Below, piece by piece: positions 60,113 to 61,480 of a stretch of DNA of 64,000 bases. The stretch comes from Eubacteriales bacterium (lineage in GTDB: Bacteria; Bacillota; Clostridia; Oscillospirales; CAG-382). A model generated the notes under the pieces. That model did not search any database and had not been told where the DNA came from. It saw nothing but the letters and a program-made list of their open reading frames with translations. The stretch lies in the NCBI GenBank assembly GCA_045536535.1, contig JAZSNS010000027.1, forward strand, positions 45,573 to 109,572, given 5' to 3'. The stretch's first letter is position 1, and each line of letters begins with the position of its first letter. The position numbers and the translations under genes are program-made.

Positions 60113-60700
60113 ATGACACCAACTCTCGAAAGGCTCGTGAACAGTTTCGCTTCCCTGCCCGGGATCGGAAGAAAAAGTGCTGCAAGACTTGCATATCGTA
60201 TAATCGAAATGAGCGATGACGAGGTCAAAAGCTTCGCTGAATCAATTATTGATGCAAAAAACAGCGTCAAACTTTGCCCTGTATGTCAAGCCTATTGTGA
60301 AAACGGTTTATGTAACGTTTGCTCAAATGAACAGCGAAGCAACGAAACGATAATAGTCGTTGAAGACAATAAAGCGCTCGAAGCTATCGAGGAAACCCAT
60401 GAATACAGCGGAAAGTATCACGTTCTTCACGGTGTTATTTCCCCCGTCGACGGTATCGGACCCGAAGAATTGAAGATCAAGGAGCTGCTTGCGCGTTTAG
60501 ATGAAAACGTCAAAGAGGTTATAATTGCGACAAATCCGAGTGTCGAAGGCGAAGCGACGGCAATGTATCTCGGACGGCTGATTAAACCGTTTGGCGCAAA
60601 GGTCACTCGTTTGGCTTATGGTTTACCTGTCGGGGCAACGCTTGAATATGCCGATTCGGTAACACTTTTAAAGGCTATTGAAGGCAGAACAGAAGTATAA
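60113..60700 (+). CDS. recR: Recombination mediator RecR
   Basis: LPGIGRKSA, C4 finger, YHVLHG, ATNPSVEGEATA. Confidence 0.96.
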   Translation: MTPTLERLVNSFASLPGIGRKSAARLAYRIIEMSDDEVKSFAESIIDAKNSVKLCPVCQAYCENGLCNVCSNEQRSNETIIVVEDNKALEAIEETHEYSGKYHVLHGVISPVDGIGPEELKIKELLARLDENVKEVIIATNPSVEGEATAMYLGRLIKPFGAKVTRLAYGLPVGATLEYADSVTLLKAIEGRTEV

Positions 60701-60718
60701 TGAAAAGCAGAGCCATTA

Positions 60719-60751
60719 GCGAGACTTCCCATAAGGAAGTCTCGCAGTTTT
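60719..60751 (+). terminator. Terminator after recR
   Basis: GCGAGACTTCC / GGAAGTCTCGC followed by AGTTTT. Confidence 0.7.
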
Positions 60752-60921
60752 ATTCGCCAAATATATTTGTCGAGTGATATTGCTTCGCAGTTTTATTATG
60801 CTACGCATAGTGGTATTGGCTGCGGCAGTTTAGGCGAATAAAATACCACTGAAACCGTAAAGTTTCAATAACACTATTGCTTTTGGCAATAATATCACTC
60901 CGACGGAGTCGGAATAAAACT
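60746..60921. repeat. Nested inverted-repeat element: 4+4 nonamers with interspersed hairpins
   Basis: AGTTTTATT, AGTGATATT, AGTTTTATT, AGTGGTATT then AATACCACT, AATAACACT, AATATCACT, AATAAAACT. Confidence 0.85.
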
Positions 60922-60949
60922 TGACGAACATTATAATTTTGCGTATAAT
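60921..60949 (+). promoter_or_regulatory. sigma-A promoter starting at the last base of the repeat element
   Basis: TTGACG-N17-TATAAT. Confidence 0.7.
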
Positions 60950-61092
60950 GATCCTGAAGTTAAATGTTTTTGCAAGCATTTTGCAAATAAGGGTTTGAGA
61001 TTGGTCCTTGACCGCATTTGTAAAGACGAATGCGATGCCGGTTCTTCTTATAAGTCCGTTCGATAATTACTGATTTGTTTGGAGGTTTTACT

Positions 61093-61362
61093 ATGAAATC
61101 GAAGTGGAAAGATGCTCCCATGTTGCATAAGATTGTAACGATAATATCCATTCTTGCAAGTTTTTCCGTTGTTGTTTTGGCGGTATTACAGATGTTTGAT
61201 GTATGGAATCAAGCAATCAATATTTATATGCCCTTGATGGGAGTAACTATGCTTTGCCAAGCTTATATGCTATGGAATAAAAGTCGGAAAGTTGCATATT
61301 TCAGCATAGGAACGGCAGTATTCATTTTCATCTGTACAATTATTGTATTTTTTGTCAAGTAA
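61093..61362 (+). CDS. Small 3-TM hypothetical protein
   Basis: GGAGG RBS then ATG 61093; 89 aa, hydrophobic. Confidence 0.75.
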   Translation: MKSKWKDAPMLHKIVTIISILASFSVVVLAVLQMFDVWNQAINIYMPLMGVTMLCQAYMLWNKSRKVAYFSIGTAVFIFICTIIVFFVK

Positions 61363-61397
61363 CAAACGCACGGTGTATGCAAATTCCAAATTATAGA

Positions 61398-61442
61398 ATA
61401 ATAAAACTCCGACATATTCAAAATCTGTCGGAGTTTTATTAT
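61398..61442. terminator. Bidirectional terminator-like hairpin
   Basis: ATAATAAAACTCCGACA / TGTCGGAGTTTTATTAT. Confidence 0.75.
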
Positions 61443-61480
61443 CTTTATGAGAAGCAGCCTTAACGACTCTGCTTTTTGAT

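What the first reader, a model, noticed from the sequence alone, without database searches (positions are those of the whole stretch)
60746..60921. Ladder-like branched non-coding element: four nested, co-varying nonamer pairs, each flanked by its own hairpin
Seen: left nonamers L1 AGTTTTATT (60746), L2 AGTGATATT (60773), L3 AGTTTTATT (60789), L4 AGTGGTATT (60809); right nonamers R1 AATACCACT (60842), R2 AATAACACT (60867), R3 AATATCACT (60891), R4 AATAAAACT (60913). In nested order L1:R4, L2:R3 and L4:R1 pair perfectly although the three pairs differ in sequence, and L3:R2 has one mismatch. That is compensatory variation within a single copy. Every spacer is itself a hairpin: CGcCAAA-TATA-TTTGtCG, GC-TTC-GC, ATGC-TAC-GCAT, GAAAC-N6-GTTTC, ATTGC-N5-GCAAT, CCGAC-GGA-GTCGG. 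Inference: as ssDNA or RNA this folds into a rod with three consecutive four-way junctions. I cannot assign it to a known family (not a terminator, tRNA, CRISPR or simple REP). Candidates are a non-autonomous mobile or REP/BIME-like element acted on by an HUH/Y1 enzyme encoded elsewhere, a recombination site, or a structured ncRNA.
Basis: partly seen in the sequence, partly recalled or inferred. Interest (0 to 1): 0.88.

Follow-up and report, generated by a model that had tools for sequence, protein, structure and literature searches.

The report
Two-armed Gut-1 hairpin repeat after recR
The element is a diverged, full-length copy of the catalogued but unexplained "Gut-1" motif of gut Clostridia, a multi-copy intergenic repeat built from two mirror-image arrays of tiny hairpins that usually sits just behind tRNA genes.

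Summary
In detail: eight nonamers and hairpin spacers lie at 60746-60921. Its left half matches Rfam Gut-1 (RF01706) at 40 bits, below the 50-bit cut-off. Three paralogs in the same genome pass the cut-off, and the whole element aligns end to end with true members.

Gut-1 was found in 122 of 151 genomes of this bacterial family and 65 of 151 of the order. In 66 of 124 copies it follows a tRNA terminator directly.

The full unit is two inverted modules, each built as word-hairpin-word. Family-wide covariation supports the small hairpins and one long-range stem, L1 plus the hairpin-1 arm pairing with the centre.

The nested ladder is not specifically supported: scrambled registers score the same.

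Loop types flip strand at the centre. They read cGNAg/cGNNAg on the minus strand of the left half and on the plus strand of the right half. This matches the DNA mini-hairpin motif, so I favour a strand-specific single-stranded-DNA element over an RNA. Function is unproven.

The parts
60719..60745 (+). hp0: 11-bp hairpin GCGAGACTTCC-CATAA-GGAAGTCTCGC. With L1 as its T-rich tail it is the only terminator-like site after recR. It is part of the repeat unit, being shared with the paralog on contig C21.
60746..60826 (.). Left module: words L1-L4 at 60746, 60773, 60789 and 60809, alternating with hairpins hp1-hp4 at 60755-60772, 60782-60788, 60798-60808 and 60818-60826. On the + strand it matches the Rfam Gut-1 model at 40.0 bits.
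60748..60758 (.). 5' strand of the long-range stem P1 (TTTTATTCGCC: most of L1 plus the 5' arm of hp1).
60833..60843 (.). Centre, the 3' strand of P1 (GGCGAATAAAA). It pairs with 60748-60758 over 11 bp and overlaps the first two bases of R1.
60842..60921 (.). Right module: words R1-R4 at 60842, 60867, 60891 and 60913, alternating with hairpins hp5-hp7 at 60851-60866, 60876-60890 and 60900-60912. It is the left module type in inverted orientation.
60782..60788 (-). hp2. On the - strand it reads GCGAAGC, the exact DNA mini-hairpin motif.
   Evidence: motif from passages of PMC13037366
60798..60808 (-). hp3. On the - strand its core reads GCGTAGC (GCGNAGC type).
60900..60912 (+). hp7, CCGAC-GGA-GTCGG: a cGNAg triloop on the + strand.
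60921..60949 (+). Sigma-70-type promoter TTGACG-17-TATAAT (11 of 12 matches) firing away from the element. Its -35 box abuts R4.
60950..61089 (+). Leader of the downstream small gene. About 55 nt (GGGTTTGAG...AATGCGATGCCGGTTC) are shared with the paralogous unit on contig C21, so the repeat unit extends this far. No Rfam match.
61090..61362 (+). Small membrane-protein ORF (90 aa from the ATG). No Pfam family reaches its cut-off.
61400..61440 (.). Bidirectional terminator hairpin between the small ORF and the convergent mntP. Its two arms carry the same word AGTTTTATT, which explains two further pattern hits.

Best explanation
SHOWN. The element is a diverged, full-length member of the Gut-1 family (Rfam RF01706), which is a multi-copy intergenic repeat of gut Clostridia.

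Its real unit is larger than the Rfam model. It runs: a leading hairpin (hp0, usually the terminator of a tRNA gene, here the terminator of recR); a left module of 7-9-nt words alternating with 4-7-bp hairpins; a centre that base-pairs with the first word plus the first hairpin arm (stem P1); and a right module that is the same kind of module in inverted orientation.

INFERRED. Each module works as a folded single strand on its own strand: the minus strand for the left half and the plus strand for the right half.
- On those strands the loops are the cGNAg/cGNNAg type that makes extraordinarily stable DNA mini-hairpins.
- The few wobble pairs also fall on those strands.

I therefore read it as a REPIN/BIME-like, structure-specific DNA element. 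It shows the same hairpin-plus-word signal on both strands when the DNA is unwound by replication, supercoiling or transfer. It spreads or is kept behind terminators, and it carries a terminator on one side and often a promoter on the other.

My odds:
- Gut-1 family member with this architecture: about 0.9.
- Acts as single-stranded DNA rather than RNA: about 0.45.
- Mobile or once mobile: about 0.5.

The partner protein is unknown.
For: Family membership:
- Gut-1 covariance-model hit at 60745-60821, 40 bits, E 5.5e-6.
- 16 matches in the same genome, 3 over the cut-off, mostly as convergent pairs.
- End-to-end alignment with 49 other copies.

Architecture and stem P1:
- At least 8 contiguous base pairs between the first 22 nt and the centre in 105 of 118 unique copies, and at least 10 in 93. 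In mismatched-copy controls, 15 of 118 reach 10.
- 89% of cells paired, 10 of 13 pairs changed on both sides, covariation 0.50 against 0.18 in shuffles (0 of 500 reach it), and at most 0.22 when slid.

Inverted modules and strand flip:
- 91 of 130 unique left spacers have cGNAg/cGNNAg loops on the minus strand, against 1 on the plus strand.
- 97 of 173 unique right spacers have them on the plus strand, against 0 on the minus strand.
- Exact GCGNAGC/GCGNNAGC occurs in 33 left spacers (minus strand) and 52 right spacers (plus strand), and in none on the opposite strands.
- G-T wobbles fall on the same strands: left 14 (minus) against 5 (plus); right 24 (plus) against 6 (minus).

DNA versus RNA stability:
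- GCGNAGC and GCGNNAGC form extraordinarily stable DNA hairpins. The RNA versions are much less stable. The motif occurs at priming sites and hairpin promoters that act on single-stranded DNA (passages of PMC13037366).
- Most left loops are triloops: 181 of 269 are the complement of cGNAg.

Dynamics:
- None of 80 recR loci of related species has such an array.
- Five species have recR-terminator-mntP with 40-83 nt between the genes, where this genome has 780 nt.
- Near-consensus copies of about 90 bits occur in many families of the order.
- Some genomes hold many near-identical copies and tandem arrays.
Against: - No transcript or DNA-structure data could be obtained.
- Rfam and its authors file Gut-1 as an RNA ('Y' in their table). 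GNRA-type loops are also good RNA loops.
- Wobble pairs in stem P1 (17 G-U/U-G cells in the 11 core pairs, columns 6-16) and at word position 1 are allowed on the plus strand only. That disagrees with the minus-strand preference of the left hairpins.
- Nearest-neighbour DNA folding shows no strand asymmetry.
- The G-U fraction of the hairpins (about 2.4%) equals that of the true RNA terminators next to them (2.3%). It therefore does not separate DNA from RNA.
- No Y1/RAYT gene is in this genome or in 3 of 5 high-copy genomes. No other candidate enzyme was identified.
- Copies within this genome are diverse, not a near-identical population.
- The terminator before type-1 copies always has an A-run, i.e. 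it is bidirectional. This hints at minus-strand transcription through the element.
Confidence: 0.4

Rival explanations
1. Gut-1 is what Rfam calls it: a structured non-coding RNA. Either one transcript crosses both modules, or each module gives its own small RNA. The hairpins and stem P1 would be RNA helices, and the words would be single-stranded recognition or pairing sites.
For: - Filed as an RNA candidate by its discoverers (passages of PMC2864571).
- Strong covariation in P1 and conserved hairpins.
- Wobble pairs in P1 and at word position 1 fit the plus strand.
- 52 of 250 right-half loops are true GNRA.
- Type-1 copies are preceded by bidirectional terminators that could end a minus-strand RNA.
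- In L118 a gene starts 18 nt after the last word, so the plus strand is probably transcribed there.
- In the window copy, promoter-like sites diverge from the centre.
Against: - No conserved promoter. In most copies the element starts immediately after a terminator.
- Promoter-like sites in the window region are no more frequent than in shuffles: 4 found against 3.4 expected.
- Loop types flip strand at the centre, so a single transcript carries half of its hairpins with loops of no known RNA stability.
- Triloops predominate, and 33 of the 85 GNNA tetraloops in the right half are non-GNRA.
- No run on record as RNA holds this sequence, so nothing could be tested.
Confidence: 0.3
2. One strand (RNA or single-stranded DNA) folds the whole element into a rod. 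Left and right words pair in nested order, and the hairpins stick out at consecutive four-way junctions.
For: - Words of the two halves are complementary in every subfamily: 90.1% of cells paired, covariation 0.137 against 0.061 in shuffles.
- Folding of whole copies predicts word:word helices in 48 of 54 copies with RNA and with DNA parameters.
- Most two-armed copies have four left and four right words: 68 of 117 copies. One copy has five and five.
- In the window copy 35 of 36 nested positions pair.
Against: - Parallel and scrambled registers score the same: 89.8% and 0.125; 90.3% and 0.137. The signal is copy-wide word identity, not pair-specific.
- Nested is best in 5 of 12 informative copies against 4.2 expected.
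- Single deviant words are not compensated.
- The paralog on C21 breaks three nested pairs.
- In the common type, L1 pairs with the centre rather than with R4 (helix 1 is only 75.7% paired).
- P1 and the ladder exclude each other.
- Copies with only the left domain exist: L104, L111, L114.
- The strand flip of loop types has no reason in this model.
Confidence: 0.12
3. It acts as ordinary double-stranded DNA. The words are an array of protein-binding sites, direct on one side and inverted on the other. The array insulates a terminator from the next promoter or regulates that promoter.
For: - It always lies between a terminator and, often, a promoter. In five copies of this genome the last word abuts the -35 box.
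- The right flank with the promoter is part of the conserved unit.
- Four to five words per side is typical of multi-site protein binding.
Against: - Words differ between copies within one genome: ATGAAAT, ATGATAT, AGTGATATT.
- Word spacing is irregular: 16-33 bp in the window.
- Nothing in a duplex-binding model explains palindromic spacers with strand-specific loop types and the covarying P1.
Confidence: 0.1

Closest known systems
Gut-1 RNA motif (Rfam RF01706; Weinberg et al. 2010, PMC2864571, passages seen)
   Same: - Words of the GUGAAAU type alternate with short C-G-closed hairpins.
- The covariance model aligns to 60745-60821 over its whole length.
- Paralogs in the same genome pass the cut-off.
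- Gut origin.
   Different: - The window copy scores 40 bits, below the 50-bit cut-off, and uses 9-nt words AGTKDTATT.
- The Rfam model covers one module of 77 nt. The real unit also has a fourth hairpin, the centre that closes stem P1, an inverted second module, a leading hairpin and a conserved right flank.
- The source paper lists it as found only in human gut metagenomes. Here it is placed in genomes of one order of Clostridia, including animal-gut MAGs.
- Whether the paper's Additional file 1 already notes the paired arrangement could not be checked, because supplements are closed.
REPINs / BIMEs (inverted REP pairs served by RAYT transposases; PMC3116915 and PMC3337134, listing and abstract starts seen)
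   Same: - Short, non-coding, intergenic and multi-copy.
- Two repeat units in inverted orientation.
- Thought to act as folded single strands.
- Several subfamilies coexist in one genome.
- Sits at the ends of transcription units.
   Different: - No RAYT/Y1 gene in this genome or in 3 of 5 high-copy genomes.
- The conserved parts are the linkers and the variable parts are the hairpins, the opposite of REP.
- Copies in this genome are diverse.
- It lies after terminators, not before them.
DNA mini-hairpins GCGNAGC/GCGNNAGC at single-strand initiation signals and hairpin promoters (phage G4 origin, RSF1010 ssiA, phage N4 early promoters; review PMC13037366, passages seen)
   Same: - The same loop and closing-pair motif on a defined strand.
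- Several hairpins side by side.
- In RSF1010, as I recall, two signals sit on opposite strands.
   Different: - Those signals sit in phage and plasmid origins and are recognised by known primases or polymerases.
- Here there are 9 or more chromosomal copies per genome, next to tRNA genes, with conserved words between the hairpins.
- No known enzyme is associated.
Intrinsic (rho-independent) terminators
   Same: hp0 plus L1 meets the terminator pattern. Each unit is a G+C-rich hairpin followed by an A/T-rich word.
   Different: The internal words are not T-runs (GTGAAAT in the common type). Only hp0 scores on the plus strand.

Membership tests
Rfam Gut-1 (RF01706) | Covariance-model score at or above the gathering cut-off of 50 bits | tested here: not met
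   The window copy scores 40.0 bits, E 5.5e-6, matched over the full model length 1-77. Three other copies in the same genome score 59-62 bits.
Rfam Gut-1 (RF01706) | Three short hairpins separated and flanked by four copies of a conserved heptamer-like word | tested here: met
   L1-L4 with hp1-hp3.
Rfam Gut-1 (RF01706) | Homology to accepted members along the whole element | tested here: met
   MAFFT alignment of the window copy with 49 copies, including ones of 59-91 bits. All words, the centre and P1 fall in the same columns.
REPIN / REP-RAYT system | Cognate RAYT (Y1 transposase, PF01797) in the genome | tested here: not met
   0 matches in the own genome (86% complete). Matches in 2 of 5 high-copy genomes, none in G109, G126 or G084.
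REPIN / REP-RAYT system | Two repeat units in inverted orientation able to form one long hairpin | tested here: inconclusive
   The modules are inverted and their words are complementary. The hairpins of the two halves are unrelated and the pairing register is undefined.
REPIN / REP-RAYT system | Population of near-identical copies within a genome | tested here: not met
   The own genome has about 9 copies of three word types. Near-identical sets exist in other genomes such as G109, G126 and G084.
DNA mini-hairpin motif (GCGNAGC / GCGNNAGC) | Exact motif on a consistent strand | tested here: met
   In the window, hp2 and hp3 carry it on the minus strand and hp7 is cGGAg on the plus strand. In the family, 33 left spacers (minus strand) and 52 right spacers (plus strand) carry it, and none on the opposite strands.
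DNA mini-hairpin motif (GCGNAGC / GCGNNAGC) | Hairpin actually forms in single-stranded or supercoiled DNA in the cell | not testable with these tools
   Needs probing experiments. The nearest-neighbour model does not capture the extra stability (review passage).
CRISPR array | Direct repeats of about 23 nt or more with unique spacers of similar length | tested here: not met
   The repeats are 7-9 nt, occur in both orientations, and the spacers are palindromes of 7-18 nt.
tRNA / tmRNA | Cloverleaf detected by ARAGORN | tested here: not met
   No tRNA is called in the locus that contains the window's element (L008). tRNAs lie upstream of other copies, not within them.

The most novel reading that the evidence does not exclude
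Gut-1 may not be an RNA at all. It may be a new class of chromosomal single-stranded-DNA element: two back-to-back arrays of d(cGNAg)/d(cGNNAg) mini-hairpins separated by guide-like words, one array per strand. It would be installed with its own terminator right behind tRNA genes across one order of gut Clostridia.

It could be a REPIN-like replicator with an unknown, non-RAYT enzyme, or a priming/restart or supercoil-sensing signal. It may be served by the small four-helix-bundle (PF05635, '23S rRNA intervening-sequence') proteins whose genes sit directly behind a subset of copies.
Probability: 0.3. Interest if true: 0.8.

Novelty: new member of a known kind. Interest (0 to 1): 0.5.

Why it matters
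Gut-1 has been in Rfam since 2010 with no host, context or function. In the library searched, only the discovery paper and one methods paper name it together with Rfam.

This window and its relatives add four things:
- **Hosts.** It occurs in an order of gut Clostridia, in 122 of 151 genomes of the window's family.
- **Context.** It sits directly behind tRNA and other terminators, and often before a promoter.
- **Full architecture.** It has two inverted modules and a covarying closing stem.
- **Strand-specific loop signature.** The loops match the most stable known DNA hairpins.

If the DNA reading holds, an 'orphan RNA' becomes a new kind of structured DNA repeat. The question of what recognises it can then be tested directly. 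If the RNA reading holds, the extended model and the tRNA linkage still redefine the family.

Tried and rejected
**Expression.** The look-up of sequencing runs listed no RNA holder and only small-share DNA holders. Nothing was laid, so this gives no evidence either way.

**RAYT/Y1 transposase as partner.** Not found in the own genome. Found in only 2 of 5 high-copy genomes.

**PF05635 four-helix-bundle protein as obligatory partner.**
- Absent from the own genome.
- None of the 12 best PF05635 loci has Gut-1 nearby.
- The gene does sit behind some copies.

**Nearest-neighbour DNA folding of each module on both strands.** Energies are alike, so there is no discrimination.

**G-U fraction as a DNA/RNA discriminator.** It is the same as in the neighbouring terminators.

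**Mobile carriers.**
- No BLAST match of a canonical unit in the phage or plasmid collections.
- A three-word pattern scan of viral contigs returned mostly chance hits. Only 2 of the 80 listed loci hold real elements.

**Nested register.** Tested by permutation within copies and by alternative registers. No specific support.

**Loop-loop complementarity between halves.** Checked by eye in two copies (L107, L098); no consistent match.

**Promoters inside the element.** Promoter-like sites are present in the window copy but not above shuffles, and they are not conserved in the common type.

**Other known RNA families.** Nothing credible besides Gut-1, tRNA and 5S rRNA.

**Considered from memory and dropped.** Integron attC, group IIC introns, Tn7-like ends and parS/Noc half-sites were considered because they resemble parts of the element. 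No defining feature could be shown.

**Supplements.** Additional file 1 of PMC2864571 may already describe details of Gut-1 that I could not see.

Full report
**What is there.** The window holds dnaX, ybaB and recR (recR at 60113-60700; Pfam). An 11-bp hairpin follows at 60719-60745, and the element runs from 60746 to 60921.

The word pattern AGTKDTATT occurs 14 times in 64 kb against 4.2 expected, and no shuffle out of 100 reached 14. Eight of the hits lie in these 176 bases. Both strands of the region fold much better than shuffles, with z -5.4 and -6.5.

- a fourth left spacer at 60818-60826;
- a central piece at 60833-60843 that is the reverse complement of 60748-60758 (most of L1 plus the first arm of hairpin 1);
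- the upstream hairpin, which with L1 as its T-rich tail is the only terminator-like site behind recR.

A strong promoter, TTGACG-17-TATAAT, starts at the last base of R4. It leads to a 90-aa membrane-protein ORF, a bidirectional terminator and a convergent mntP.

**It belongs to a catalogued family.** An Rfam scan puts 60745-60821 on the Gut-1 model (RF01706) over its full length, at 40 bits and E 5.5e-6. This is under the 50-bit cut-off.

The same genome (1.55 Mb, 32 contigs, 86% complete) has 16 matches. Three pass the cut-off, and most form convergent plus/minus pairs about 20 nt apart.

The window copy aligns end to end with 49 other copies. Every word, the centre and the last word fall in shared columns.

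The discovery paper lists Gut-1 as a likely non-coding RNA, not cis-regulatory, found only in human gut metagenomes (passages of PMC2864571). Its supplements could not be opened. Two library searches found no later functional work.

**Distribution and context.** By the titles of the nearest RecR loci, the organism is an uncultured gut Clostridium of the Eubacteriales/Oscillospiraceae kind.

- Gut-1 matches at E <= 1e-3 occur in 122 of 151 genomes sampled from the window's family, with 91 over the cut-off, and in 14 of 15 genera.
- At E <= 1e-4 they occur in 65 of 151 genomes of the order, in 21 of 30 families.
- None of 14 control genomes has a match over the cut-off.
- Up to 29 matches were scored per genome. 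Near-consensus copies of about 90 bits occur in many families. Some genomes hold many near-identical copies and tandem arrays with a period of about 260 nt.

Of 124 unique copies, 66 have a complete tRNA gene ending 27-44 nt upstream, with only the terminator hairpin between. These tRNAs carry 25 different anticodons. At least 10 further copies show a tRNA 3' end cut by my fetch limits, as read by eye. About a dozen copies instead begin after a conserved 11-bp hairpin of the GCGGAGTGTCC type.

In this genome, copies follow tRNA-Leu, tRNA-Arg, tRNA-Asn (at the end of an rRNA operon) and tRNA-Tyr. The window copy and its paralog on contig C21 follow protein genes and share the leading hairpin. 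They also share the promoter and about 55 nt of leader.

None of 80 recR loci of related species carries such an array. In five of them, recR and mntP are 40-83 nt apart, where this genome has 780 nt. The unit here is therefore a gain, or a loss elsewhere.

**Architecture of the family**:
- a leading hairpin;
- L1 (CAAC[G/T]AAAT in the common type) with hairpin 1;
- three more words (GTGAAAT) alternating with hairpins 2-4;
- a centre that repeats the 3' arm of hairpin 1 and continues as the complement of L1;
- four inverted words (ATTTCAC) alternating with hairpins 5-7.

The commonest layout is four left and four right words, seen in 68 of 117 unique copies. At least three copies that I read in full have only the left domain, the centre and one right word (L104, L111, L114).

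Words differ between subfamilies (GTGAAAT, ATGATAT, AGTGATATT) but are nearly uniform within a copy. All three types coexist in this genome.

**Which pairings are supported.** The long-range stem P1 (L1 plus arm with the centre) is strongly supported.
- It has at least 8 contiguous pairs in 105 of 118 unique copies and at least 10 in 93. Mismatched-copy controls reach 10 in 15 of 118. There are at least eight different arm sequences.
- On the alignment, 89% of cells pair and 10 of 13 pairs change on both sides. The covariation score is 0.50, against 0.18 in shuffles (0 of 500 reach it) and at most 0.22 when the partner is slid.

The nested ladder gives 90.1% paired and covariation 0.137. A parallel register gives 89.8% and 0.125, and a scrambled register gives 90.3% and 0.137. 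So the signal is that all words of a copy agree, not that particular pairs co-vary.

Further tests of the ladder:
- In 12 copies whose words differ enough to be informative, the nested matching is best or tied best in 5, with 4.2 expected.
- Single deviant words are left uncompensated.
- The C21 paralog has the same right words as the window copy but breaks three nested pairs.
- In the window copy itself the minimum-energy fold uses P1.

P1 and the ladder exclude each other.

**The strand flip.** This is the observation that changed my reading.
- Among unique spacers, 91 of 130 in left halves have loops that read cGNAg or cGNNAg on the minus strand, and 1 on the plus strand.
- 97 of 173 in right halves read so on the plus strand, and none on the minus strand.
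- The exact strings GCGNAGC and GCGNNAGC occur 33 times (left, minus strand) and 52 times (right, plus strand), and never on the other strands.
- Wobble pairs follow the same strands: 14 against 5 in the left half and 24 against 6 in the right half.

The element is therefore two copies of one kind of module in opposite orientation, each with a preferred strand. It is not one strand designed to fold as a whole.

The loop motif is the one described for extraordinarily stable DNA mini-hairpins. The same review says the RNA versions are far less stable. It places such hairpins at the phage G4 origin, at RSF1010 ssiA and at phage N4 hairpin promoters (passages of PMC13037366).

Most left-half loops are triloops. 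In the right half, 33 of the 85 GNNA tetraloops are not GNRA. From memory, that fits the d(cGNNAg) rule for DNA better than the GNRA rule for RNA.

In the window, hp2 and hp3 are exact GCGAAGC and GCGTAGC on the minus strand, and hp7 is cGGAg on the plus strand.

**Caveats.**
- Nearest-neighbour DNA energies do not show the asymmetry.
- The wobble fraction equals that of the adjacent true terminators.
- Wobbles in P1 fit the plus strand.
- The always bidirectional terminators in front of the common type hint at minus-strand transcription.
- No RNA data exist for this organism in the run index.

**Partners.** No Y1/RAYT gene was found here or in three of five high-copy genomes.

The only recurrent neighbouring gene is a small four-helix-bundle protein (PF05635).
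- It lies directly behind the element in 5 of 45 loci examined, and also at G144:C7, G126:C27, G111:C2, G034:C4 and G002:C134 by coordinates.
- The family is in 110 of 151 genomes.
- It is absent from this genome.
- The 12 best PF05635 loci have no Gut-1 nearby.

I treat this as a lead only.

**Verdict.** The element is a new, diverged member of a known but unexplained family, so 'unassignable' is wrong. The ladder is possible but not specifically supported.

My best reading is a REPIN/BIME-like structured repeat whose two modules act as folded single-stranded DNA on opposite strands, installed behind terminators with a terminator and often a promoter of its own. I give the family assignment and the architecture about 0.9. 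I give the single-stranded-DNA mechanism about 0.45, and the RNA reading about 0.3.

Noticed in passing
window 60921-61089, and contig C21 (locus L004:1700-1830): The promoter and about 55 nt of leader (GGGTTTGAG...AATGCGATGCCGGTTC) are shared by the two paralogous units, although the downstream genes differ: a 90-aa membrane protein here and a 161-aa HExxH protein on C21. No Rfam match. It is either part of the repeat unit or an unknown leader motif.
   Followed up: partly
window 61400-61440: The bidirectional terminator between the small ORF and mntP has arms that end in the same word AGTTTTATT as L1 and R4. This accounts for two of the 14 pattern hits.
   Followed up: partly
L110, L118, L119, L099, L109; G126:C27:71951-72247; G144:C7:7930-8223; G034:C4:22419-22724; G002:C134:7527-7832: Genes for small four-helix-bundle proteins (PF05635, '23S rRNA intervening sequence protein') sit directly behind a subset of Gut-1 elements, in the same orientation as the tRNA. 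In L118 the start codon is 18 nt after the last word.
   Followed up: partly
L096, L098, L105, L106, L123, L127, L129, L130, L133 (about 100 nt to the right of the element): A conserved right flank (...ACGAACGGTTATGTAAGAGTTCGAATTCATACGC...ATCTTTTTTGTAGCCCATAGACAG) with a tRNA T-arm-like GAGTTCGAAT, usually followed by another terminator. Its ACGAAC..TTAT part aligns with the -35/spacer of the window's promoter. No Rfam match.
   Followed up: partly
L107, L108, L112, L115, L116, L134-L139, L158, L184, L188: A second kind of leading hairpin (GCGGAGTGTCC-NNNN-GGACACTCCGC, with compensating changes), without a T-run and without a tRNA. It has its own conserved right flank, and these copies may belong to a larger repeat.
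   Followed up: no
L110, L141, L148 (genome G084): Head-to-tail arrays of two to four complete Gut-1 units with a period of about 260 nt behind tRNA genes. Eight of eleven units examined share one identical terminator.
   Followed up: partly
L003 (contig C16:21-486 of the own genome): 5S rRNA, tRNA-Asn, a terminator and Gut-1 in a row at a contig start. Many Gut-1 hits in other genomes also lie within about 100 nt of contig ends, so true copy numbers are probably underestimated in draft assemblies.
   Followed up: no
L097:175-356: A chimeric copy. Its first word and arm are of one type (CCACCC) while its centre is of another (GGATTTATTT), which shortens P1. This hints at recombination between copies.
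   Followed up: no
window 60701-61480: The whole 780-nt recR-mntP spacer (hairpin, element, promoter, small ORF, terminator) corresponds to 40-83 nt in five related species. The small ORF may have arrived together with the element.
   Followed up: partly
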